In this document: one piece after another, positions 1 through 9,977 of the stretch
Position numbering within the stretch: the first letter of the stretch is position 1
How the letters are laid out: every line of letters begins with the position of its first letter
Origin: a virus
Virus record (IMG/VR): IMGVR_UViG_3300005099_000066
Span: 12,949-76,948 of that record
DNA: 64,000 nucleotides
Reading direction: 5' to 3' (one strand)
The notes under the pieces: model-generated
The model's database searches: none
Told to the model about the DNA's origin: nothing
Seen by the model: the letters and a program-made list of their open reading frames with translations, nothing else
Program-made: the position numbers and the translations under genes

Positions 1-1385
1 TATGCTTCTGTCCATGATTTTATCGTATATCTTTGAACACCTACACCAGGAACATAAACTGCTACTTTTACATAAATAGCAGAACCACTATCATAAACAT
101 ACCAAATAGCCTCACCTGAAGCAGGTGTAGGTTCCGAAGTCTGAATAGATTCCAAAAAATACTTTCCTGTTAAATAATGCGTTGTTTTTCCACCAACAGC
201 AGAACTGCTTACTACTTTTGTTCCACCTCTGTATATATCACCTGTTACAACATTTATACCTGAAGTTCCTATTCTTATTAAATCTCCCCATGTTACATTA
301 TTTCCAGCAGTCGGAGTGTCATCAGTTCCATAACTAATCCTAAATAAATACCAGTTTTCACCCGAATATGGGTCAATAGCAATTTTTACAGCTGTTTCAT
401 CACTTACCAAATATGTTCCAGGATTTCCATAAGAAGCATTCCATTTTAAAACAAATCTTCCAGTTCCATCTTGAGCTGTTAAAATAGCACTTGAAGTAAC
501 ACCCCTTAATTCAACACCTTTTAATAAATTACTATCCCTACCAGAAACTGATAAAGAATCCGTTAAGACAATTTTTTCAGAACTGCGTATATCACCATCC
601 ACATCCAGTGTATATGAAATAAGAGTATCACTCCCTACATTTATTCCAACTCTATTATTATCTACATCTACTATAAGTGCAGTATCATTTATAGCAAAAG
701 AACCCTGATGTGATACACTTTCAGCTACAGTAAAATCATTAGAACCATGTATATACATTCCAGCTTCACTCACATGTATCCCATCCCAGTAATATGTAGA
801 TGTCCCCAGAGAATAAGTTTCAGCCATGTCAGGTCTTATATCTGCTTTTGCTATTAACTCCACATCTGTATAAACCTTGGAATTTGCTCTGTCTATTGTT
901 ATGAAATTTGAATTAGAATCATAATCCCTTATATAGAATTTGTCATCTGTAGAATAGTAAAACAATTTGATTCCCGCATCTGTGCTCTTTTTAGTATAAC
1001 AAAAGGCTATTCCATTATAACCAGCACCTTTTATTTTGATTGCTCCATCAGTATAATCCCCAGTTGCTGTTATACTTATTACAGGTAAAGTGCCTGACAT
1101 ACTTATAAAACCTGATAAATAAATATTAGCAAATTTATGTGTAGAATCACCTATTGTAAGAGATGTGTTTTGAGGAATTATACTTCTGTAAATATCAATC
1201 TCAGATGAAGAAAGAACAGCAATATTACTTCCAGAGATATTCAGCTCTATATTTCCACCTATAACATTATTTACAATAAATTTGTTAGCAGTATATTCAG
1301 TGTATAATTTGGCTATAAGAGAATTATCTTCATCAAAGAAGTGTAGTTCTTTTCCATCTGTAAGTAGAAGAGGTTTTTGAGCCAT
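1..1385 (-). CDS. Virion fibre protein (~461 aa, runs to the window edge)
   Basis: Not in ORF track. ATG at 1385 after AGGAG; begins MAQKPLLLTDGKELHFFDEDN and ends ...QRYTIKSWTEA+TA at base 1. Fibre-like motifs (IGDSTHKFANIYL, RVGINVG...TLDVDGDI); N-terminus paralogous to 1403..2878. Confidence 0.7.
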   Translation of the reverse strand, partial: MAQKPLLLTDGKELHFFDEDNSLIAKLYTEYTANKFIVNNVIGGNIELNISGSNIAVLSSSEIDIYRSIIPQNTSLTIGDSTHKFANIYLSGFISMSGTLPVISITATGDYTDGAIKIKGAGYNGIAFCYTKKSTDAGIKLFYYSTDDKFYIRDYDSNSNFITIDRANSKVYTDVELIAKADIRPDMAETYSLGTSTYYWDGIHVSEAGMYIHGSNDFTVAESVSHQGSFAINDTALIVDVDNNRVGINVGSDTLISYTLDVDGDIRSSEKIVLTDSLSVSGRDSNLLKGVELRGVTSSAILTAQDGTGRFVLKWNASYGNPGTYLVSDETAVKIAIDPYSGENWYLFRISYGTDDTPTAGNNVTWGDLIRIGTSGINVVTGDIYRGGTKVVSSSAVGGKTTHYLTGKYFLESIQTSEPTPASGEAIWYVYDSGSAIYVKVAVYVPGVGVQRYTIKSWTEA

Positions 1386-1402
1386 ACTTTACTCAATCTC
1401 CT

Positions 1403-2878
1403 TTAGTTCTGGCTAAACTTAACAACTGTTATTCTTGCTCCACTTGGTAAGTCATAATTGAATGATATATATGGAGAACCCTGTTCTTGATAATCTTCAG
1501 TTGAACCAGGAGTTTGAAATACACCATTAACAAATACTAATATTCTACCAGACTCATAAGAGCCAATGTCTATATTTGTGCCAGCTGTTGTGTCACTTGA
1601 CAAATCAACATATGATGTAGAAACTGTATTTGATAAAAATTGTCCAGATTTAATATACAGCTGATTACTTCCATTTTCTCCTATTGTTGTATCATCTATT
1701 TTAACAGCAACACCATTAGCACTAACATTAATAACCTTTGCTAAATTTGTTCCACCAGTAGTATCTGCTACAACAGAAAGAGCAGTTCCTCCACCTCCTG
1801 TTAATCCATTCCCAGCTACAGAAGTTGCCAAATGAGATTCTGTTATTCCACCAGATTTGACTTGAATTGTTCCAGAGGAATTTTCAATTGAAGAATCATC
1901 CACATTAACTTCTGCATAAATAGCAGGTGTATTATCATTATATGTAAACAGGACTGAATGCCCTGAATTTGTTAGAATATTTCCAACTGCGTCCTGTGCT
2001 TTTTCGTCTGTGTAATATAAATGTGTGCTACCTTCTGCTAAATCATCAGTCGTAAATCCACTTAAAGATTTTAAGTATAAGTAATGGTTTGTAGTATCAA
2101 CATCAATATTTGTTCCATCAACTTTATCAGATAAATAACCTGCAGTAGGGTCAGATGAATCCGCTTTCACATACTGGTCTGTTCCAGCTATTTGCTGAAA
2201 TTCTAAACCAGTTTCCCCTGCATTTACAATAATAGCATATCCTCCATAGCCTGTGTATGAAGAAGGAGTATCATTTAAATTCAAAAATGATTTGGCATTC
2301 CAATATGTATCAAAATTTCCAGCATGTATAATCTCCCTTGCTGTTCCACCAGAATCCGTAAGAACCCATTTATCATTAGTCTCATCCCAGTATAACTGCA
2401 TATCAGTTGAGTCTCCTCTCTCAACAATAATACCAGAATCCTCGGAGGGAGTGCCTGTAAATCCACTATTCAGATGAATCCATCTGTCCTCAACATGCAA
2501 TTCTGTTACTGTTTCCTTATTTATTGAGCCTCCAATTGTAAAATCACCTGATACATATAAATTGCCTGTAATTGAAGCTCCACCTGAACTTACTGTTAAT
2601 GCTCCATTGAAAGTAGCAGCACCTGCCTGTATATTTACCCAGGAAGAGTCTGTATCATCTCTTATATATAAAACTCCAGATGAATTTTTAAGCAAAATAG
2701 CAGAATTTATTTCAACTGAAGAAACGAGTATTTTAGTAGAAGAAGCATCAAATGTTGTTGTTGTTTCTAATACTACAGTTCCAGAAGAGCCTCCGTAGAG
2801 GCTTCCAACAAGAGTATTAGAATCATTATAAATATCCAGATGTTTTCCATCTGTTAAGAGCAGATTTTTCTGAGCCAT
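1403..2878 (-). CDS. Virion fibre / structural protein
   Basis: G/S/T/D-rich, with fibre motifs (TTDDLAEGSTHLYYTDEKAQDAVG, VAGNGLTGGG, ERGDSTD...WDETNDKW) and a C-terminal FVNGVFQ...YDLPSGA module. Confidence 0.7.
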   Translation of the reverse strand: MAQKNLLLTDGKHLDIYNDSNTLVGSLYGGSSGTVVLETTTTFDASSTKILVSSVEINSAILLKNSSGVLYIRDDTDSSWVNIQAGAATFNGALTVSSGGASITGNLYVSGDFTIGGSINKETVTELHVEDRWIHLNSGFTGTPSEDSGIIVERGDSTDMQLYWDETNDKWVLTDSGGTAREIIHAGNFDTYWNAKSFLNLNDTPSSYTGYGGYAIIVNAGETGLEFQQIAGTDQYVKADSSDPTAGYLSDKVDGTNIDVDTTNHYLYLKSLSGFTTDDLAEGSTHLYYTDEKAQDAVGNILTNSGHSVLFTYNDNTPAIYAEVNVDDSSIENSSGTIQVKSGGITESHLATSVAGNGLTGGGGTALSVVADTTGGTNLAKVINVSANGVAVKIDDTTIGENGSNQLYIKSGQFLSNTVSTSYVDLSSDTTAGTNIDIGSYESGRILVFVNGVFQTPGSTEDYQEQGSPYISFNYDLPSGARITVVKFSQN

Positions 2879-2894
2879 AAATCAGTGCCTCCTT

Positions 2895-3512
2895 TTATGT
2901 GAATATTACAAAATCAATTATTGCTCCAGAAGGTAAATCATATGTGAATGAAATAGATGTTGAAGAATCTTCAGTATATTCTTCATTTTTTGTTTGTAAA
3001 ACTCCATTTACATAAACCATCAAATTATTCTCTCCAACTGAATATGACCTTCCATTTGGTATTGTAATAGATGTTCCAGCTGTAATATCTGATGGTGCTG
3101 TATAAGTTTCTCTGTATATTGTAAGTGATACAGAAGTTCCACCATTTCCTCCTTCTCCAAGACAAAAGACATCATTTAAAGCTGTATTTATTTTTTCCCA
3201 TGATTTATCCAGGAGTGGTTTAACAACAGCTTCAATAATAGATTTGAGTAAGACTTCACGCAGTGATTTAAGTATAGAAACAAATGGTTCCTGCTTAAGA
3301 TTGATTTGTTGAATAATTGATAGAATCTGTTGTTCTGTATTTGAATCCAGTTCATGTTCAGATATATACTTCTGTAAATAGGATTTGAGATTTTCTGGAT
3401 AGTATTCATCAAATAAATCAGGGTATTGAGAAATAATGTAATCATAAATATTGTCGACAATGCTGGAAATGTCAAGTCGTATTGGGCAATTGTATGTGTT
3501 TTCATTTAACAC
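2895..3512 (-). CDS. Putative virion protein with C-terminal beta module
   Basis: C-terminal VYVNGVLQ...ISFTYDLPSGA shared with the 491-aa fibre protein; helical N-terminus. Confidence 0.55.
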   Translation of the reverse strand: MLNENTYNCPIRLDISSIVDNIYDYIISQYPDLFDEYYPENLKSYLQKYISEHELDSNTEQQILSIIQQINLKQEPFVSILKSLREVLLKSIIEAVVKPLLDKSWEKINTALNDVFCLGEGGNGGTSVSLTIYRETYTAPSDITAGTSITIPNGRSYSVGENNLMVYVNGVLQTKNEEYTEDSSTSISFTYDLPSGAIIDFVIFT

Positions 3513-3524
3513 ATCCTACCTTCC

Positions 3525-4877
3525 CTATTTGGTTTTATCAAACACAGTCAGAAATCTTGGAGAGGACATATAGCCAAACGAATGTAGAGTAATAGCATCT
3601 GAGTAGATTCTGTAGCCTATATCAGTTCTAAAATAACCATCGGGTATATGTATATGATTTAACAGATTTTTATATGCCTGTAAAATAGCAGGCTCAAGTT
3701 TTGGATGTTTTCCTACAGACACAATAGCTCTTCCATGTGAAGGAACAATTCTGTAAACTCCATCTTCATCTTTGTAAATTCCAGCTGGAATATGTTTGTT
3801 AATAAAATCTGGCTTGTCAAGATAAACAGGACTGTTAGCAGATTCTTCTAAAACACAAGCAAATGGATAACCTTTAGCATTGTAAGCAACTCCAACTAAC
3901 CAATCTGAATCAATATCTACTTTTTTCATTAAGCCTTTTGGAATATCATGAAATATCTTTCCGAGGGGAGTTCTTATAGCTGGCAACATTATTAAAATAT
4001 GTGGATAACCAAATCTTGCTGTATATTCAAGAAAATAAGGTTTGCCATCTTCATATGATACAATCGCATTTATGTCTATATAATTTACACCATAGTATTT
4101 TGAATACCATCTTTCTCTTCCCTTATCACCAAACATTAATTGAAATAATTTGTCTGAATCATCATATCCATTATTGTTGAATATTACTGTTCCCATCTCA
4201 CCTGTCATTGGTCCTATTTCTCCTGGGAACAATCTTTTGTGCTCAAAATTCATATTCCATGGGAATACATATCCATTTGGAGAAACAAATAAGCCAATAG
4301 CTACTTCAACACCTTCTATATATTCTGTAATTACAAGTTCTGTTGAATCATCTACACCTTTCTCAATTAAACCTTTCAAGTGGTCTATGGCATCATCTTT
4401 TCCAAATGCAACATATGTTTTAATAGAAGAATCTCCTACTTTGTTGACTTTAATTACAGGTCTGGAGAATTCTCCTGATTTTATATCACTAATTGCCTCT
4501 TTTATAGAAGAGTAAATTTTTGATTTGGGAAAATAATCATACAGATTTTTGTCTTTAGCAAACATTCTTTCATTTTCCAGCCTTTCACCTATTGAACTTG
4601 TTCCCCAGACTGTTTTTCCTTCTTTTCTCAGTTTATCAACTGTTTGTCCCCATCCCATATCAGGAAATACAATAACATCAACTTTGTCTATATATGGTTC
4701 CCAGTTGTCTATTCTTTTTACACCAAAGTCTTCCAAAATCCCTTTTCCATACAATAAGTCTGCCTGTTCAGGATGTGCTCTTTGCCAAACTGTGTAGTAG
4801 TAAACCTCTTCACCTTCATTTGCAAGTCTAATAGCAATTGCTTCAGATAAACCTGTGTCAACTATAAGATATTTCAT
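3525..4877 (-). CDS. PurD-like (GAR synthetase family) ATP-grasp ligase 1
   Basis: EHKRLFPGEIGPMTGEMG (cf. PurD DHKR..GPNTGGMG), EYTARFGYP (cf. EFNxRFGDP), LENERMFAK, FRTDIG. Start reassigned to ATG 4877 after AGGAGG. Confidence 0.85.
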   Translation of the reverse strand: MKYLIVDTGLSEAIAIRLANEGEEVYYYTVWQRAHPEQADLLYGKGILEDFGVKRIDNWEPYIDKVDVIVFPDMGWGQTVDKLRKEGKTVWGTSSIGERLENERMFAKDKNLYDYFPKSKIYSSIKEAISDIKSGEFSRPVIKVNKVGDSSIKTYVAFGKDDAIDHLKGLIEKGVDDSTELVITEYIEGVEVAIGLFVSPNGYVFPWNMNFEHKRLFPGEIGPMTGEMGTVIFNNNGYDDSDKLFQLMFGDKGRERWYSKYYGVNYIDINAIVSYEDGKPYFLEYTARFGYPHILIMLPAIRTPLGKIFHDIPKGLMKKVDIDSDWLVGVAYNAKGYPFACVLEESANSPVYLDKPDFINKHIPAGIYKDEDGVYRIVPSHGRAIVSVGKHPKLEPAILQAYKNLLNHIHIPDGYFRTDIGYRIYSDAITLHSFGYMSSPRFLTVFDKTK

Positions 4878-4879
4878 TA

Positions 4880-5224
4880 TTAGTCCTCCTGGAATTCTAC
4901 ATTTATATAGTTGAGCCAATCTGTAGGGAATGTTTTCATAAGATAATCCTGTATTGTTTGTCTTATAAATTCACTTATTTTTCTCCTTCTTATGTAAATG
5001 TCTATATAGGAATCTTCATTCATTTTGTCAACACGAGGTTCTACAACTATACATGATTCACTTCCAACTTGTTCCTCTGCAAATGTTACAAAATCCTTCA
5101 GAAGTGCAATAAATACATCTTTGTCAACATTTATGCTATTTACAAAGTTTTCGAAGTCATCTTTATTACTCACAATTACAGTTGTTTTATCTGTCAAAAA
5201 TGAAACAAATGTTCCGTAATCCAT
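4880..5224 (-). CDS. Hypothetical protein between the two ATP-grasp genes
   Basis: 114-aa ORF with GGAGG RBS, tightly packed. Confidence 0.6.
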   Translation of the reverse strand: MDYGTFVSFLTDKTTVIVSNKDDFENFVNSINVDKDVFIALLKDFVTFAEEQVGSESCIVVEPRVDKMNEDSYIDIYIRRRKISEFIRQTIQDYLMKTFPTDWLNYINVEFQED

Positions 5225-5234
5225 GTTCCACCTC

Positions 5235-6476
5235 CTAATACAAAATTCCTTCAGTTTGAGAAATCCATTGTTTTATTGTGCTAATTAAATCCTTATCATA
5301 AAACTTACCCTCAAAGTCTATCCAGTTGTTTGCTATGTCCAGAATTTTCTTCCAGGCATTGTCAACTGTTTTGTCATTTACCATGATTAAGCCAACTAAA
5401 TCATCTCCTGGAATGAAATAATAATTATTCTTTACTTTAGCAACTCTTCTAAATTCCCATTCTCTTAAACACTCCATATCTGGATTATCAAACATCTTTC
5501 CAGTTATTTTTAACCATTCGTCAGTATTTTTAGTAGCCAAATACAAACCAACAAGCCAATTACCATTTACATTCCAGGGCACAGATTTTGCCTTTCCTGT
5601 TGCAATATGATATAGAAAGTCTGTATAATTTTTCAGGTATTTAGTCCAGAATAAAGACAATGACTGAGCAAATCTGGAAGTAATATCAGTAACATATAGA
5701 TTTTTATTTTTATCCATAAATCCTTCCAGAGAAAAGGGACCAGTGTAATTTGATGCTTCCTTTTGACTAAATATCTTTTCTAATATTCCATTCCACAAAG
5801 ATTTTTCAACTATCTTTAAAATATAGCCTGTTCCAGTAGCAAGTCCTACAGTGTATGGTTTTAGAATTTTGCCTTTGGATACCCAGACATCACATCCCAC
5901 TTCAATCATATTTCTCATGTTTCTTTGTATTATTATAGGAGAAGTCTCGGAGAAGGGACCAATTGCACTTCTTAATTCTTCCAGCTTTGTTTTAGTATTA
6001 CTATCATCTTTGGCATACCATGTGTCAATATTACCTCTAAAAATAGAATCAACTTTTACCCAACAATCGTAATTGTATTGTTTAATTAAAACATAGGCTT
6101 CATCTACACCTTTAGCAATTTTGTATTCAGGAACTTTAACACCTATCTTATCAAGAAATTTGTAGCCTCTTGATTTGGAAATTTCATACTGTTCTAATTC
6201 TGCTCCAGACACGACATAATTTTTCTCAGATTTTAAGTAATTCACAAAATGCCCCATTCCAACATCAACAAATACAAGCAAATCGTAATTGTCTAACTCT
6301 CCAAAATCATATATTCTTCTGAATGAATCAAAACCCATACCTATTGCATATTCTTCCAGTCTTGGAAAGCCTTTTGAAATAGGAGTAAATAAATACACAT
6401 CATGCCCATCAAAAGCCATTCTTGTGGCTTGTCCAAGTCCTGCAAATCCCTCTGTATCAACTACTAATATTTTCAT
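5235..6476 (-). CDS. Divergent PurD-like ATP-grasp ligase 2
   Basis: N-terminus parallels ligase 1 (MKILVVDT vs MKYLIVDT; LVFVDVGMG vs IVFPDMGWG); IGVKVPEY, WVKVD, IEVGCD, YTGPFSLE, VTDITSRF fit an ATP-grasp fold. Confidence 0.7.
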   Translation of the reverse strand: MKILVVDTEGFAGLGQATRMAFDGHDVYLFTPISKGFPRLEEYAIGMGFDSFRRIYDFGELDNYDLLVFVDVGMGHFVNYLKSEKNYVVSGAELEQYEISKSRGYKFLDKIGVKVPEYKIAKGVDEAYVLIKQYNYDCWVKVDSIFRGNIDTWYAKDDSNTKTKLEELRSAIGPFSETSPIIIQRNMRNMIEVGCDVWVSKGKILKPYTVGLATGTGYILKIVEKSLWNGILEKIFSQKEASNYTGPFSLEGFMDKNKNLYVTDITSRFAQSLSLFWTKYLKNYTDFLYHIATGKAKSVPWNVNGNWLVGLYLATKNTDEWLKITGKMFDNPDMECLREWEFRRVAKVKNNYYFIPGDDLVGLIMVNDKTVDNAWKKILDIANNWIDFEGKFYDKDLISTIKQWISQTEGILY

Positions 6477-7396
6477 TCTATTAAATCTATTGCGTTATTA
6501 TAGTAGAACTCTATAAGATTATCAATTTCATCTATAACAGCATCAAAGAATTTTCTTTCTTCTTCAAATAATTTGATATTATATCTGGAAGCAACTATAT
6601 CCACATTTCCCTTTCTCCAAAATCCGTCAGGACAATAAACTAAAACATTTTTATCTCTGAATAAACCAAGTTCAAGAAGTGTTATAGGGGATTTTGTTCC
6701 AGGCACAAAGTAATAAATATTTATATCAGTTAATTCCTGACTCATCAATTCCCATTCAACTTGTTCTCTAAAATATGGATTATTTATGCTTTGTTCCCAC
6801 GAAGAATCCCAGTCATCTCTGCGAGGATTTACTATGAAGACAATATATGATAATTCGTTGTCTTTTGCATAATTTTTCAAGTAGGAATATATATGGTTTG
6901 TTAACCTTTTTTGCCAATTTTCAGCTGTTCCCATCTCAATAGAACCACCCAGAAATATTGAAACTGGAAATTCTCCTATATCAAGAAAGTAATTATACAA
7001 AGGTTTCCATTCAGTAGGAGCTTTTATTTCATACAACAGAATCTTTGTTGTTTCATTAACCAATTTTATTTCATTATCATTCAATTCAGAATCTTCTTCG
7101 AAATTTTTTAACAGAGTATCAAGAAAAAGCTGTTTTTCTGTTTTGGATAGAGATTTGAGATATTTTGTTTTGAATTTATTAAATGTGTTTTTATTCATAA
7201 GAATTTTTTCAATAGCAATATCTTTGAAAATCAGAGTGTCCTTTAAATAATCTGGAAGAAACAGTTTTTCTGCTGCTTCATTTGATTTTTCCAAAAAAGC
7301 CATAAGAAGATTGTAAATTTCTTTTTCAGAAGAAGGTGTTTCAGGGAAAGTAATTTTGAAAATCGAAGGCTGTTCTGTTGGCTTAAATTCCCACAT
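6473..7396 (-). CDS. Nucleoside 2-deoxyribosyltransferase-like (nucleotide N-glycosidase) domain protein with ~140-aa N-terminal extension
   Basis: IFLGGSI..W, NPRRDDWDSSW, QVEWEL, SPITLLELGL, GNVDIV motifs typical of the NDT-like family. Confidence 0.85.
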   Translation of the reverse strand: MWEFKPTEQPSIFKITFPETPSSEKEIYNLLMAFLEKSNEAAEKLFLPDYLKDTLIFKDIAIEKILMNKNTFNKFKTKYLKSLSKTEKQLFLDTLLKNFEEDSELNDNEIKLVNETTKILLYEIKAPTEWKPLYNYFLDIGEFPVSIFLGGSIEMGTAENWQKRLTNHIYSYLKNYAKDNELSYIVFIVNPRRDDWDSSWEQSINNPYFREQVEWELMSQELTDINIYYFVPGTKSPITLLELGLFRDKNVLVYCPDGFWRKGNVDIVASRYNIKLFEEERKFFDAVIDEIDNLIEFYYNNAIDLIE

Positions 7397-7406
7397 AATA
7401 GTCTCC

Positions 7407-7778
7407 TTACAGTTTTACAAAGTTGTAAAAATCTTCAATTTTATTCAAAACAAATTTCCTTATCTTTCTTTGTCTCATAAGTTTTACTCTTTCTTCAGGA
7501 AAATTCCAGGAATACTCTAATTCAGCCAATTCGTAATATCTCTCAGCTTCTTCAGCAATCACATATTTTAATTCTTCCAAAAAGCTTTCTGTATCACCTT
7601 TCACATCTGCCTTTACTATAAATGCTTCTTCAGTTAAATCATAATCATATTCAGCAATTTCGAAATCATACTCATCGGAATATTCCATAAATTCCTCGAA
7701 TAACAACTCAAGTGAACCCAAAAGCCATTTCCAGAATGGTCTATCAAGATTCGAAACAGGAATTTTTACCTCAATCAT
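7407..7778 (-). CDS. Hypothetical acidic protein
   Basis: 123-aa ORF, coupled to neighbours. Confidence 0.55.
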   Translation of the reverse strand: MIEVKIPVSNLDRPFWKWLLGSLELLFEEFMEYSDEYDFEIAEYDYDLTEEAFIVKADVKGDTESFLEELKYVIAEEAERYYELAELEYSWNFPEERVKLMRQRKIRKFVLNKIEDFYNFVKL

Positions 7779-8107
7779 GATACCTTTGGTGGATTTACTA
7801 TTTTGCTTTGGTCTGGAATTTCGAGTCCAGTTGTTCTTCTTATATACTCTGCCACAGATTGTTTATTTGGTCTAAACCAGCCAATTACTCCTTTCAAGTA
7901 AAGCAATTCATTTTCCTCTATTGGTAAGTTTATTAGTAATAACAGTATCAAACCTTTATCACTGCCAGGAGGCATGTGAGCTTGAACTAACATAGGCTTT
8001 TCTACTATTACTGTCCCATCAACTTGCGTGCCTTTGTAGTAACCCATTACCCATCCAGCATGTGTTATAAATACTACTAATTCATTTATATCAGGCATTG
8101 TTTGCAT
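7775..8107 (-). CDS. Hypothetical protein (possible Sm-like beta-barrel)
   Basis: 110 aa with AGGAGG RBS; beta pattern then EYIRRTTGLEIP tail. Confidence 0.5.
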   Translation of the reverse strand: MQTMPDINELVVFITHAGWVMGYYKGTQVDGTVIVEKPMLVQAHMPPGSDKGLILLLLINLPIEENELLYLKGVIGWFRPNKQSVAEYIRRTTGLEIPDQSKIVNPPKVS

Positions 8108-8117
8108 AATAACCTCC

Positions 8118-9977
8118 TTATTTGTCTAATTCTCTTATTCGAGAAGGAATATTCACTCCTTCTCTTCCTCCTCCAATAATTTTTGTCCCTCCAAGGGGAT
8201 TTGATGGGGGAACTAACTGTCTGAGGGGAGATTCCACTCTCGCAGTTGAAACTGTTGAAGCCTTTCCAACTGCGAGTTTTCTTGCTTCTGCTTCAGATAA
8301 AGTTATTGAATCAGTTTTAGAGTCTATATGAAACAGTTTATTAAACCAAAAGACCAAACCAACTATTGAATCAGCAATATCCTGATATCCCGTTATTACT
8401 CTGGGCTTTGAAGAGCCTGATGGAGGCTGGAGGTTTTTAAATTGTGAAATTGCCAAATATGATTCTTCCTGGTTTGGAAATATTATTGCTGGAGGATTAG
8501 AATAAAACAGATTTTTTGCACTGATATAATCTTGCTGATTTACAGGTTTATCATCCCATTCTTTAGCAAGATGTTTAAAAGCAGCAGTGTTCCATTTGTC
8601 TGACTTTATTTTTGTAATATTCAAATACTTTGCAAGTCTACCTATTACATCATAATAATTCCATAAATCTACTGATACATTCTTTTGTTTATCTGTTTGC
8701 CAGACTAAAATTGCATCAACTATTAAGAGTGGAGTTCCTCTTTGTATTAAGCCATGTCCTATTGCAACTGCTGCCATACAGTCAACTTCTCCTGGGTCTA
8801 TACCCATAAAGTATTCGTATGGCTCTGGTTTTCTTGTAAATCTTAAGGTATCAGGTTTGTAAACAAATTTGTTTCCATTAGCAGTTTTTATAATTTCACT
8901 TTCGGCAATTACAAGAGGCAATCTGTTTTTATCAACAAAAACATCCTCATCCAAAACTTGTAAAACAGGCATCCATCTTTCTACAGAATATCCTACTGGA
9001 AGGGCAAGATATTTAGCTACAGCTGAATTAAAATCTCTGTCAAATTGAGTTTTGAAATCCATGGGGACATCAACTTCTAAATCAAATTCTTTCACATAAA
9101 TTCTAAAAGTTTCTTTGCTAAAGAATTTCTTTGGTTTGACTTGCCATGTAAAATAGTGAGAAGTATAGGCATTATCATATTTTCCATTTTTGACTTCTTC
9201 ATGTAAAATATATGTAAAATCATTCTTTTTATCGAGTCTGGGGAATGATGTTACAAGTCCCAGGTATGGAAGCTCTCTTGTTGAAGTTGTAGCTGTATTA
9301 AAAATCTTTTCAGCATTATGGATTCCAGATTGTGAAACATGTCCAGAAGCTTCATCCATAACAAAAGCAATAAGAGTCAAACCTTCCCATGATTCATTTT
9401 TGGAGGGAACTGATATGAATTCTACATTTATTGAACTGAATTTTATTGTATTTCCAGCTATATGAATTTTTGGCAATGACCTATCACATATATGTGAATT
9501 AACTATTTTTCCATGTTCCTCAATAGGATATTTGTTGAAAAATTTTGAATTCTTTATTCTGGCCTTTACTCTGTCAAACATTTTCTGGGACTGATTCTGG
9601 TTAGTTGCGACAGTTATAATTGATATAGCATCTGCTTTTGATACTCCAAAGAAATCATGAGGGTTTGGTTCAAGAAAGTGTAGAAGATAAATAACATAAG
9701 TAATTATGTTAGCAGAAACAAGTCCCTTTCCACTTCCCTTTCCCCAAAGAAGAACAGATAAATTTGGTCTTGTTTCAGGTGTAAAAAATAAGACAGGATC
9801 CCCTTTCACTCCACCTTCTCCAATAATAGCAAGAGATTCTCTGGTTTGGACTTCAGATAATTTTACCTCATTTAAATCATTATACAAAAATTCAAGAAAT
9901 GGAAGAACATTGTGTGTTGGCTTTTTGACTTCAGATTTATTCTCACTTATTAGTATTTTTCTCCAATCAGAACTCAT
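8118..9977 (-). CDS. terL: Terminase large subunit
   Basis: Walker A WGKGSGKG, Walker B AFVMDEA, coupling motif TSFP, nuclease MGIDPG and DIADS. Confidence 0.85.
   Translation of the reverse strand: MSSDWRKILISENKSEVKKPTHNVLPFLEFLYNDLNEVKLSEVQTRESLAIIGEGGVKGDPVLFFTPETRPNLSVLLWGKGSGKGLVSANIITYVIYLLHFLEPNPHDFFGVSKADAISIITVATNQNQSQKMFDRVKARIKNSKFFNKYPIEEHGKIVNSHICDRSLPKIHIAGNTIKFSSINVEFISVPSKNESWEGLTLIAFVMDEASGHVSQSGIHNAEKIFNTATTSTRELPYLGLVTSFPRLDKKNDFTYILHEEVKNGKYDNAYTSHYFTWQVKPKKFFSKETFRIYVKEFDLEVDVPMDFKTQFDRDFNSAVAKYLALPVGYSVERWMPVLQVLDEDVFVDKNRLPLVIAESEIIKTANGNKFVYKPDTLRFTRKPEPYEYFMGIDPGEVDCMAAVAIGHGLIQRGTPLLIVDAILVWQTDKQKNVSVDLWNYYDVIGRLAKYLNITKIKSDKWNTAAFKHLAKEWDDKPVNQQDYISAKNLFYSNPPAIIFPNQEESYLAISQFKNLQPPSGSSKPRVITGYQDIADSIVGLVFWFNKLFHIDSKTDSITLSEAEARKLAVGKASTVSTARVESPLRQLVPPSNPLGGTKIIGGGREGVNIPSRIRELDK

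What the first reader, a model, noticed from the sequence alone, without database searches (positions are those of the whole stretch)
3525..7396. Tandem PurD-like ATP-grasp ligases plus a nucleotide N-glycosidase between terminase and fibre genes
Seen: tightly packed run of NDT-like gene, ATP-grasp 2, 114-aa ORF, ATP-grasp 1, with no other de novo purine genes in the window. Ligase 1 keeps the PurD loop (EHKR..GPMTGEMG) but changes EFNxRFGDPE to EYTARFGYPH; ligase 2 lacks that loop (DITSRFAQS). Established: PurD ligates glycine to the amine of an amino-sugar (phosphoribosylamine); NDT-family enzymes (DNPH1/RCL, MilB) cleave nucleotide N-glycosidic bonds. Inference: not purine supply but a new amide-forming system. 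It may aminoacylate the amino-sugar exposed by PIG-L on DNA at packaging time, build a novel nucleotide from released sugar-phosphate, or peptide-tag/cross-link virion proteins. The divergent copy could be a second step or a heterodimer partner.
Basis: partly seen in the sequence, partly recalled or inferred. Interest (0 to 1): 0.85.

Follow-up and report, generated by a model that had tools for sequence, protein, structure and literature searches.

The report
Two non-PurD ligases in phage
An uncultured marine-sediment and vent phage carries two diverged copies of an enzyme shaped like the purine enzyme PurD but rebuilt for unknown substrates, next to a common phage nucleotide-sugar-cleaving-type gene; the genes are real, but nothing ties the three together as one system.

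Summary
A tightly packed minus-strand run encodes a Nuc_deoxyri_tr2 (PF15891) protein, a divergent ATP-grasp ligase (L2), a 114-aa ORFan and a PurD-like ligase (L1), between a terminase-like gene and fibre-like genes.

Neither ligase is PurD. L1 scores 109 bits against a 288-bit purD cut-off. It lacks the GGREH loop, the GLAAGK loop and the glycine-binding Asp and Glu, and it splits from canonical PurD with full support. Cellular genomes that hold an L1-type gene also hold a normal PurD. No purF or purN-type formyltransferase match was found in the 77-kb record.

L1 and L2 belong to two large, undescribed sister families that keep the ATP-grasp catalytic core.

The proposed three-gene system is not supported:
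- 0 of 80 L1 loci hold an NDT-like or L2 gene.
- 0 of 45 NDT-like loci hold a ligase.
- The nearest relative phage has L1 alone at the same site.

L1-type genes also occur sporadically, 55-63% identical across phyla, among housekeeping genes of bacteria and archaea. This argues for a ubiquitous substrate rather than this phage's virion proteins or DNA. The product is unknown.

This scan has flagged the family before on other DNA (103 notes hold the search words, most unchecked). In the searchable literature I found only a 2011 remark on possibly related 'extra' PurD-like proteins.

The parts
8118..9977 (-). Terminase-large-subunit-like gene (619 aa) heading the late operon
   Evidence: No Pfam, PHROG or PDB sequence hit. 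The ESM Atlas places it with viral MJ0330_N P-loop clusters, some labelled terminase. It is 48% identical to the 630-aa gene at the same position in relative L002.
7775..8107 (-). 110-aa small gene, conserved next to the terminase-like gene
   Evidence: 26% identical to the 105-aa ORF that sits between the terminase-like gene and L1 in L002. No family hit.
7407..7778 (-). 123-aa ORFan, first gene of the inserted cassette
   Evidence: No family hit. No homologue in the 160 ligase loci. Absent from L002.
6473..7396 (-). NDT-like protein (307 aa): lineage-specific N-terminal extension (about residues 1-120) plus a PF15891 domain (about residues 122-290, nt 6527-7033)
   Evidence: PF15891 at 4.2e-26 and phrog_30579 at 2e-37. 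It matches PDB 4mcj, an uncharacterised protein, at 4.9e-17. All family-invariant residues are kept, including GSIE and LLELG. The extension is found only in a 95%-identical relative, where it carries 16 substitutions against 0 in the domain. An in-frame 3-nt insertion behind 7044 appears in three runs.
5235..6476 (-). L2: divergent PurD-fold ATP-grasp ligase (413 aa)
   Evidence: 737 representative clusters match at E<=1e-3. hhalign against the L1 family gives 100% probability, E 1.2e-60. The model has pLDDT 91, and its best fold matches are GAR synthetases, TM 0.64-0.74. The L2 clade has 100 support. The ATP Lys, acidic Mg ligands and the Arg of TxRF are kept, and the EHKR..TGEMG loop is deleted.
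4880..5224 (-). 114-aa ORFan between the two ligases, with an acidic C-terminus (EFQED)
   Evidence: Only 91% and 81% identical relatives were found. The C-terminus is kept in the 91% relative. No Pfam or PHROG hit. The Atlas gives nothing above chance level. The two listed strain variants are at third codon positions.
3525..4877 (-). L1: PurD-like ATP-grasp ligase (450 aa), the conserved member
   Evidence: GARS_A and GARS_C hits. TIGR00877 scores 108.9 bits against a cut-off of 288. The model has pLDDT 87 and aligns to GAR synthetases at Z 30-33 over about 390 residues, against Z about 21-22 for PurK, PurT and biotin carboxylase. It is 58% identical to the gene at the same site in L002. 23 of 28 listed variant sites are third codon positions.
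3..3512 (-). Three fibre-like genes downstream (205, 491 and more than 461 aa)
   Evidence: Weak PHROG tail-fibre and virion-protein hits, and DUF4183 at 0.004. They share N-terminal (MAQK.LLLTDGK) and C-terminal modules. More fibre-sized genes follow in the 12.9 kb before the window.

Best explanation
The stretch is part of the late operon of an uncultured tailed phage from marine sediment and hydrothermal vents.

It encodes two paralogous ATP-grasp carboxylate-amine ligases. Both descend from PurD but belong to two large, undescribed sister families, which I call L1 and L2.

Shown: both keep the parts that make an acyl-phosphate from ATP and a carboxylate. These are the ATP lysine, the acidic metal ligands, and the Arg equivalent to human GARS Arg292. 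Both have lost what makes PurD specific for phosphoribosylamine and glycine: the N-terminal GGREH loop, the GLAAGK loop, and Asp295 and Glu297.

Shown: L1 is the resident gene of this phage group. The block of 123-aa ORF, NDT-like gene, L2 and 114-aa ORF is a lineage-specific insertion.

Inferred: each ligase joins a carboxylate (most likely an amino acid or another small acid) to an amine that is not phosphoribosylamine. The L1 pocket residues are invariant across phages with unrelated virion genes and in stand-alone cellular copies. The substrates are therefore most likely ubiquitous cell molecules (a metabolite or a universally conserved host component), not this phage's virion proteins or modified DNA.

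Inferred: the NDT-like protein is an independently mobile phage gene of the nucleotide N-glycosidase/transferase superfamily. It probably acts on the nucleotide pool on its own.
For: Not PurD:
- TIGR00877 scores 109 bits against a cut-off of 288.
- There is no GARS_N hit.
- In 147 L1 sequences, Thr replaces the Asn of EFN in 147. An aromatic residue replaces the glycine-binding, general-base Asp in 145. Glu replaces Gly in TGGMG in 146. Residue roles are from Welin 2010, PMC2978367.
- The tree splits canonical PurD from L1 plus L2 with 100 support.
- Five cellular genomes with an L1-type gene each also hold a better-scoring full-length purD match. Four score 365-588 bits, above the cut-off. 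The fifth, in Nitrosopumilales, scores 166 bits. The L1-type genes score 93-108 bits.

Catalytic core kept:
- L1: K143 in 146/147, E191 in 147, K214 in 147, E284 in 147, R288 in 147.
- L2: Lys in 117/119, Asp in 116, Arg in 118.
- PurD fold for both.

L1 resident, cassette inserted:
- L002 synteny.
- L002 has no L2 or PF15891 gene in its 73 kb.

No linkage between the genes: 0/80 and 0/45.

Ubiquitous substrate:
- 80 cellular loci from many phyla collapse to 4 sequences at 62% identity and nest among viral ones.
- Their neighbours are ValRS, ArgRS, an M1 peptidase, MgtE, a MiaB-like enzyme and a PRTase.
- They are sporadic: 5 of 151 and 1 of 151 genomes, the query genome included in each count.
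- About 20 of 80 viral loci place L1 among DNA-binding, PhoH and exonuclease genes rather than virion genes.

The genes are real: strain contigs lay across the gene junctions in the same order, and third-position variation dominates in L1.
Against: - No substrate was identified and no chemistry was tested.
- In the alignment of about 270 sequences, 33 or more of 80 viral L1 loci place the gene directly after large proteins. Some of these carry a lytic transglycosylase domain typical of ejected internal virion proteins, and the gene lies before tail fibres. That placement fits a virion-associated or injected role as well as a metabolic one.
- In this phage the four genes are translationally coupled, and strain contigs show the same gene order. 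A local functional link between the NDT-like protein, L2, the 114-aa ORF and L1 therefore cannot be excluded.
- The Asn-to-Thr change at a metal ligand could mean altered or weak catalysis.
Confidence: 0.55

Rival explanations
1. Injected or virion-packaged host-takeover enzyme. L1, and perhaps L2, is made late and packed with the ejection proteins. It is delivered with the DNA and ligates an amino acid or amine onto a universally conserved host protein or RNA. The analogy (from memory) is phage T4 Alt, which is packaged and modifies host RNA polymerase.
For: - L1-type genes lie immediately after large proteins with N-terminal transglycosylase domains (internal virion or ejection protein type), and near portal-like, GNAT and 'DNA ejection' genes, in many viral loci.
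- L2-type genes lie between portal and terminase in Aquificae viruses.
- An invariant pocket across phages fits a conserved host target.
- Cellular copies lie next to ValRS, ArgRS and MiaB-like genes in unrelated lineages.
Against: - Position is the only evidence.
- No packaging signal or proteomics is available.
- About 20 of 80 loci are in replication-type neighbourhoods.
- The nearest characterised relatives (PurD, PurK, PurT) all act on small molecules.
Confidence: 0.2
2. Virion-protein modification. The ligases tag, cross-link or extend this phage's own structural proteins (fibres, or the 114-aa acidic-tailed protein). The analogy (from memory) is RimK, LysX or tubulin ligases acting on acidic C-termini.
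For: - The genes lie in the late operon directly upstream of fibre genes.
- The 114-aa ORF between the ligases ends in EFQED, and this is kept in a 91% relative.
- Five viral loci have a small protein ending in PQTDDE just upstream of L1.
Against: - Acidic C-termini upstream of L1 are not general: about 14 of about 70 loci, and these are not independent.
- The 114-aa ORF is an ORFan.
- L1 pocket residues are invariant although the virion proteins of these phages are unrelated.
- L1 lives alone among housekeeping genes in cells.
Confidence: 0.12
3. One pathway. The NDT-like enzyme releases or transfers a sugar-phosphate or base. The two ligases then aminoacylate the product, or an amino-sugar on hydroxymethyluracil DNA, giving a new nucleotide or DNA hypermodification.
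For: - The four genes are translationally coupled, and strain contigs show the same order across the gene junctions.
- The NDT-like domain keeps all family-invariant residues.
- Earlier notes suggest the phage makes hydroxymethyluracil (unchecked here).
Against: - There is no co-occurrence anywhere else: 0/80 and 0/45.
- The relative phage keeps L1 without the NDT-like gene or L2.
- PIG-L is not detectable by Pfam.
- The residues PurD uses for the sugar-phosphate amine are lost.
- Cellular L1 copies have no such partners.
Confidence: 0.1
4. L1 is a true auxiliary purine gene: a divergent but functional GAR synthetase.
For: - PurD is the best sequence and fold match.
- Public sources often name relatives phosphoribosylamine-glycine ligase.
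Against: - It fails every PurD-specific test.
- Cells that have it also have a better-scoring purD match.
- No purF or purN-type gene is in the record.
- Brown 2011 judged similar 'extra' proteins not to be GARS.
Confidence: 0.03

Closest known systems
PurD / glycinamide ribonucleotide synthetase (EC 6.3.4.13; TIGR00877; PDB 2QK4, 2YW2, 1GSO)
   Same: - Same four-domain fold over the full length: L1 at Z 30-33 and rmsd 3.0-3.7 over about 390 residues; L2 at Foldseek E 4e-19.
- Both keep the ATP lysine, the D/E-H-K-R region (L1 only), the Arg of RFG, and the C-domain R..D (L1 only).
   Different: - No GGREH loop and no GLAAGK loop.
- EFN becomes EFT (L1) or DxT (L2).
- The Asp of RFGDPE becomes Tyr or Trp, and the Glu is lost.
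- TGGMG becomes TGEMG in L1, and the loop is deleted in L2.
- The purD model score is below the cut-off.
- They form a separate clade.
- They coexist with a better-scoring purD match in cells.
'Extra' PurD-like proteins of haloarchaea (rrnAC0307, Hlac_1553) noted by Brown et al. 2011, Biol Direct 6:63
   Same: They are described as lacking GARS_N, the Mg sites and the conserved Asp of R[LF]GDPE, and were judged not to be GAR synthetases. The cellular L1-type copies found here show the same pattern.
   Different: I could not fetch those two sequences, so membership in the L1 clade is not shown. The paper assigns no function and does not mention viruses.
PurK, PurT and biotin carboxylase (ATP-grasp enzymes of the same structural group)
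   Same: They are the next-best fold matches, at Z about 21-22, and use the same acyl- or carboxy-phosphate chemistry.
   Different: They are clearly more distant than PurD, and no specific motifs are shared.
NDT superfamily: nucleoside 2-deoxyribosyltransferases, DNPH1/Rcl, MilB/BlsM (from memory); Pfam PF15891; PDB 4MCJ
   Same: - The PF15891 domain scores well above its cut-off.
- The Gly-Ser-Ile loop and the Glu in LLELG lie where these enzymes have the phosphate loop and the nucleophile. That placement is from memory of DNPH1 and is not tested here.
   Different: - No member of PF15891 has a described activity in the searchable literature, and 4MCJ is uncharacterised.
- This copy has a unique, fast-evolving 120-aa N-terminal extension.
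Phage amidoligase / GAT / ATP-grasp / GGCT cassettes of LUZ24-like phages
   Same: They are phage-encoded ATP-grasp amide-forming genes of unknown product.
   Different: They belong to a different ATP-grasp family (291 aa). They sit in early or replication modules and have fixed partner genes. None of those partners is present here.

Membership tests
PurD (GAR synthetase, EC 6.3.4.13) | Score at or above the curated cut-off of the equivalog model TIGR00877 (288 bits) | tested here: not met
   L1 scores 108.9 bits and matches model positions 81-423 only. L2 has no hit.
PurD (GAR synthetase, EC 6.3.4.13) | GARS_N domain with the GxGGREH loop (Arg13 and Glu14 of human GARS on the phosphoribosylamine side) | tested here: not met
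   There is no PF02844 hit. L1 has D-T-G-L-S-E and L2 has D-T-E-G-F at that place. Three to four of the five canonical PurDs have G-[SG]-G-R-E-H there, and the two archaeal-type ones differ. Residue roles are from PMC2978367.
PurD (GAR synthetase, EC 6.3.4.13) | Signature R-[LF]-G-D-P-E (Prosite PS00184), whose Asp and Glu bind glycine | tested here: not met
   L1 has RFGYPH and L2 has RFAQSL. In 147 L1 sequences the Asp position is Tyr, Trp or Phe in 145.
PurD (GAR synthetase, EC 6.3.4.13) | Groups with canonical PurD in a tree | tested here: not met
   Canonical PurD splits from L1 plus L2 with SH-aLRT 100.
PurD (GAR synthetase, EC 6.3.4.13) | PurD four-domain fold | tested here: met
   L1 aligns at Z 32.8 to 2QK4. 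The 12 best Foldseek matches of L2 are all GAR synthetases.
PurD (GAR synthetase, EC 6.3.4.13) | Forms GAR from phosphoribosylamine, glycine and ATP | not testable with these tools
   This needs an enzyme assay or purD complementation.
ATP-grasp superfamily | ATP-binding Lys, acidic metal ligands and the ATP-grasp fold | tested here: met
   K143, E191, and E284 (L1) or D (L2) are kept in at least 97% of family members, except the L2 Glu at the E191 position (108 of 119, 91%).
Nuc_deoxyri_tr2 (PF15891), NDT superfamily | Pfam score above the gathering cut-off, and the family-invariant residues | tested here: met
   91.8 bits against a cut-off of 30. All columns invariant among the 9 aligned homologues are kept.
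Nuc_deoxyri_tr2 (PF15891), NDT superfamily | N-glycosidic bond cleavage or transfer on a nucleotide or nucleoside | not testable with these tools
   No member of this Pfam family has a described activity in the literature searched.
A coupled NDT-like plus ligase 'system' | The genes recur together in unrelated genomes | tested here: not met
   0 of 80 L1 loci and 0 of 45 NDT-like loci show the pairing. L002 has L1 only.

The most novel reading that the evidence does not exclude
In this phage lineage the NDT-like enzyme, L2, the 114-aa acidic-tailed protein and L1 work as one pathway. It converts a nucleotide, or a nucleotide-derived sugar-phosphate or base amine, into a new amide-linked product. 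That product is either a building block for DNA hypermodification or an anti-defence small molecule. If so, PurD-derived ligases have been recruited to a second, non-purine nucleotide chemistry.
Probability: 0.1. Interest if true: 0.85.

Novelty: new variant of a known kind. Interest (0 to 1): 0.5.

Why it matters
PurD-derived ligases with rebuilt substrate sites form two very large families. More than 241 IMG/VR stretches encode a relative of L1, and 737 clusters at 50% identity match L2. Databases routinely mislabel them as purine genes, so they get counted as auxiliary metabolic genes.

They sit in late, virion or ejection modules of many unrelated phages. They also hop sporadically into bacteria and archaea with little sequence change.

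Finding their product would add a new reaction to phage biology: a new metabolite, a host-takeover modification or a virion chemistry. It would also correct a systematic annotation error.

This window adds three points:
- The two families can co-reside.
- L1-type genes are not phage-only.
- The NDT-like neighbour is probably incidental.

Tried and rejected
Contexts of the nearest protein hits could therefore not be fetched, including a possible second L1 plus L2 pair on a 14,673-bp Logan contig.
- The search for related loci could not use the L2 alignments because no stretch was conserved enough. L2 contexts rest on three annotated Aquificae viruses only.
- Proteins of about 760-930 aa in the L2 family looked like tandem fusions. 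They are single ligases with an insertion of about 340 aa, so they are no Rosetta-stone evidence for a dimer.
- A general acidic C-terminus on the protein upstream of L1 was not found.
- An AdoMetDC-type decarboxylase partner, suggested by earlier notes, was not found in this record.
- Promoter-like sites are not above shuffled expectation, and there is no terminator inside the operon.
- The 114-aa ORF has no relatives beyond near-identical ones, and the Atlas hits are at chance level.
- No RNA holder was listed among the sequencing runs.
- Literature searches for PurD-like phage ligases and for PF15891 gave only Brown 2011 and an unrelated retron paper. Iyer et al. 2009 on amidoligases is not held.
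- Terminase-like gene: no PDB sequence match.

Full report
**What is there.** The window is bases 12949-76948 of a 76,948-bp IMG/VR virus record estimated 61% complete. On the minus strand, from 9977 down to 3, lie these genes:
- a 619-aa terminase-like gene
- ORFs of 110 and 123 aa
- a 307-aa protein with a Nuc_deoxyri_tr2 domain
- a 413-aa protein, here called L2
- a 114-aa ORF
- a 450-aa PurD-like protein, here called L1
- three fibre-like genes

The NDT-like gene overlaps L2 by 4 nt. L2 and the 114-aa ORF are 10 nt apart. The 114-aa stop abuts the L1 start. No terminator-like site lies inside the run, and promoter-like sites are no more frequent than in shuffles.

Contigs from four separate studies (marine sediment, sediment, two hydrothermal vents) lay on the stretch. 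Pieces bridge the L1/114-aa, 114-aa/L2 and L2/NDT-like junctions at about 94-95% identity. Of the 28 best-supported variant sites listed inside L1, 23 are third codon positions. A 3-nt in-frame insertion occurs in the NDT-like N-terminal extension. These are real, selected genes.

**L1 is PurD-shaped but not PurD.**
- Pfam finds GARS_A and GARS_C but no GARS_N.
- The purD equivalog model gives 108.9 bits against a cut-off of 288, and matches only model positions 81-423.
- The predicted structure (pLDDT 87) aligns to solved GAR synthetases at Z 30-33 over about 390 residues. That is well above PurK, PurT and biotin carboxylase at Z about 21-22.
- Welin et al. 2010 (PMC2978367) assign roles in human GARS. 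Asp217, Arg292, Asp295 and Glu297 bind glycine. Asp295 is the likely general base. Arg13 and Glu14 lie on the phosphoribosylamine side. GLAAGK is the conserved B-loop.
- In an alignment of 147 L1-type sequences, the Arg is kept in all. The Asp295 position is Tyr, Trp or Phe in 145, and the Glu297 position is variable. The Asn of EFN is Thr in all 147. TGGMG is TGEMG in 146. The N-terminal loop is D-x-G-L instead of G-G-R-E-H.
- The ATP lysine and acidic ligands are invariant.
- The acyl-phosphate machinery is therefore kept, and both substrate sites are rebuilt.

**L2 is a still more divergent relative.**
- Pfam alone gives only E 0.07.
- An exhaustive HMMER search finds 737 representative clusters, 334 of them below 1e-10.
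- Its family profile matches the L1 family profile at 100% probability, E 1.2e-60, over 401 columns, including the shared non-PurD N-terminal domain.
- Its model (pLDDT 91) has GAR synthetases as its 12 best Foldseek matches.
- The family keeps the Lys (117 of 119), an Asp in place of the Glu of EFN (116), the Arg (118) and a Ser-x-Glu (118). The whole EHKR..TGEMG loop is deleted.
- Members of about 760-930 aa are single ligases with an insertion of about 340 aa, not fused pairs.

**Phylogeny and distribution.** A maximum-likelihood tree of 61 non-redundant sequences splits canonical PurD from L1 plus L2 with support 100. L2 is one clade (100). The window's L1 sits in a small clade with the IMG/VR relative L002 and metagenome proteins at 39-58% identity.

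More than 241 IMG/VR stretches encode L1-type proteins. L1-type genes also occur in cellular genomes of many phyla. Those 80 loci collapse to four sequences at 62% identity and nest among viral branches. Five such genomes each also carry a better-scoring full-length purD match. Four score 365-588 bits, above the cut-off. The fifth, in a Nitrosopumilales genome, scores 166 bits. The L1-type genes score 93-108 bits.

The cellular copies have no conserved neighbour. They sit beside ordinary genes: ValRS, ArgRS, an M1 aminopeptidase, MgtE, a MiaB-like enzyme, and PRTase plus DeoC. They are sporadic: 5 of 151 sampled Acidobacteriota-phylum genomes, and 1 of 151 in the phylum of the Nitrosopumilales genome, the query genome included in each count. 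Yet they are 55-63% identical to the Nitrososphaera protein.

Brown et al. 2011 (PMC3261824) had noticed 'extra' PurD-like proteins in two haloarchaea that lack GARS_N and the signature Asp. They judged them not to be GAR synthetases. That is the only literature trace I found.

**Contexts in viruses.** In 80 viral L1 loci two settings recur.
- In at least 33, the gene starts within 90 nt of the end of a protein of 370 aa or more. Several of these proteins carry an N-terminal lytic transglycosylase domain of the internal-virion/ejection type. Portal-like, GNAT and 'DNA ejection' genes lie upstream and tail fibres downstream.
- In about 20, the gene lies among DNA-binding, transcription-regulator, PhoH and exonuclease genes.

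L2-type genes in three Aquificae viruses lie between portal and terminase. In at least the Thermocrinis Great Boiling Spring virus it is the only ligase in the record. The present phage has a baseplate-wedge homologue, so it is not a podovirus.

**Is there a three-gene system?** The evidence says no.
- None of the 80 L1 loci has an NDT-like gene, an L2-type gene, or a homologue of the 114- or 123-aa ORFs within 8 kb.
- None of 45 metagenomic NDT-like loci (267 kb) has either ligase type.
- The nearest relative phage (L1 58%, terminase-like gene 48% identical) has terminase, a 105-aa ORF, L1 and fibre at the same site. It has neither L2 nor PF15891 anywhere in its 73 kb.

L1 is thus the resident gene. 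The block of 123-aa ORF, NDT-like gene, L2 and 114-aa ORF is an insertion specific to this lineage.

The NDT-like domain is a very common stand-alone protein of about 170 aa. More than 1,888 proteins match it, including many in jumbo phages, and all are uncharacterised. The one solved relative, 4MCJ, is also uncharacterised. Here it keeps every family-invariant residue. It carries a unique N-terminal extension that evolves much faster: 16 substitutions against 0 in a 95% relative.

The 114-aa ORF is an ORFan with an acidic EFQED end. Acidic ends on upstream proteins are not a general feature of L1 loci.

The PIG-L gene on which the amino-sugar idea rests is not detectable with Pfam at E<=0.01 in this record. 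No purF, Formyl_trans_N (purN-type) or AdoMetDC match is present.

**Most likely mechanism.**
- Shown: there are two PurD-fold ATP-grasp proteins with an intact catalytic core and rebuilt substrate sites.
- Inferred: each activates a carboxylate as an acyl-phosphate and passes it to an amine other than phosphoribosylamine.
- Inferred: the L1 pocket is invariant across phages whose virion proteins are unrelated, and in lone cellular copies. The substrates are therefore probably ubiquitous cell components. I favour a small-molecule amide, because all near relatives act on small molecules.
- A packaged, injected host-modifying enzyme is the main rival, because of the ejection-module position.
- Modification of the phage's own virion proteins, or a joint pathway with the NDT-like enzyme toward DNA hypermodification, remains possible for this lineage but lacks comparative support.

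**Verdict.** 'Not purine supply' is supported, and the proposed integrated system is not. This scan has already met the ligase family many times on other DNA (103 notes hold the search words, most unchecked). This window adds the co-residence of the two sister families, the demonstration of cellular L1 copies beside a better-scoring purD match, and evidence that the NDT-like neighbour is incidental.

Noticed in passing
L092, L121, L133, L141, L145 (Acidobacteriota) and L135, L149 (Aenigmatarchaeota); L097, L108, L161, L115, L129, L134: Cellular L1-type genes lie next to a class-I aminoacyl-tRNA synthetase (ValRS type) in two very distant lineages. They lie next to a MiaB/RimO-like radical-SAM methylthiotransferase in Steroidobacteraceae, Woesearchaeota and Nanoarchaeota contigs, and ArgRS is two genes away in Nitrosopumilales. 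This may hint at a link to translation or tRNA, or it may be chance.
   Followed up: partly
proteins P0255, P0280, P0288, P0299, P0303, P0324, P0329, P0333, P0340, P0362, P0366, P0369, P0383: L2-family proteins of about 760-930 aa are one ligase interrupted by an insertion of about 340 aa, at two different places (after about residue 150 or about residue 267). The size suggests an intein; I did not check.
   Followed up: partly
proteins P0003 and P0242: The 53%-identical L1 relative and the nearest L2 relative (sister of the window's L2, support 99) both list a 14,673-bp Logan contig as their longest. They may sit together, which would be a second L1 plus L2 pair.
   Followed up: no
L027, L029, L032, L045 (ORFs ending just upstream of the ligase): A family of 111-125-aa proteins directly upstream of L1-type genes ends in a conserved acidic tail, PQTDDE. 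This recalls the EFQED end of the window's 114-aa ORF. No sequence similarity between the two was shown.
   Followed up: partly
L144:4427-7085: An archaeal MAG contig carries two L1-type genes in tandem (457 and 426 aa). It is the only other double among the 160 loci.
   Followed up: no
window 6497-6525 (minus strand): The best sigma-70-like match of the region (TTGATA, 17 nt, TATAAT; 11 of 12) lies inside the 3' end of the NDT-like gene, just upstream of the L2 start. Overall promoter-like counts are not above shuffles.
   Followed up: no
window 8118-9977: The terminase-like protein escapes Pfam, PHROGs and PDB sequence searches. It matches viral clusters carrying PF27249 (MJ0330_N P-loop), several of which hold inteins.
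   Followed up: partly
window 6476-6499 and 7044: Vent-metagenome strains show a cluster of small insertions at the L2/NDT-like junction. Three runs show an in-frame 3-nt insertion in the NDT-like N-terminal extension. The junction and the extension are the most variable parts of the cassette.
   Followed up: partly
window 1403-3512 and 3-1385: The 205-aa and 491-aa proteins share a C-terminal module (weak DUF4183 hit). The 491-aa and the more-than-461-aa proteins share an N-terminal MAQK.LLLTDGK motif. This looks like a set of swappable fibre genes on a common adaptor.
   Followed up: no
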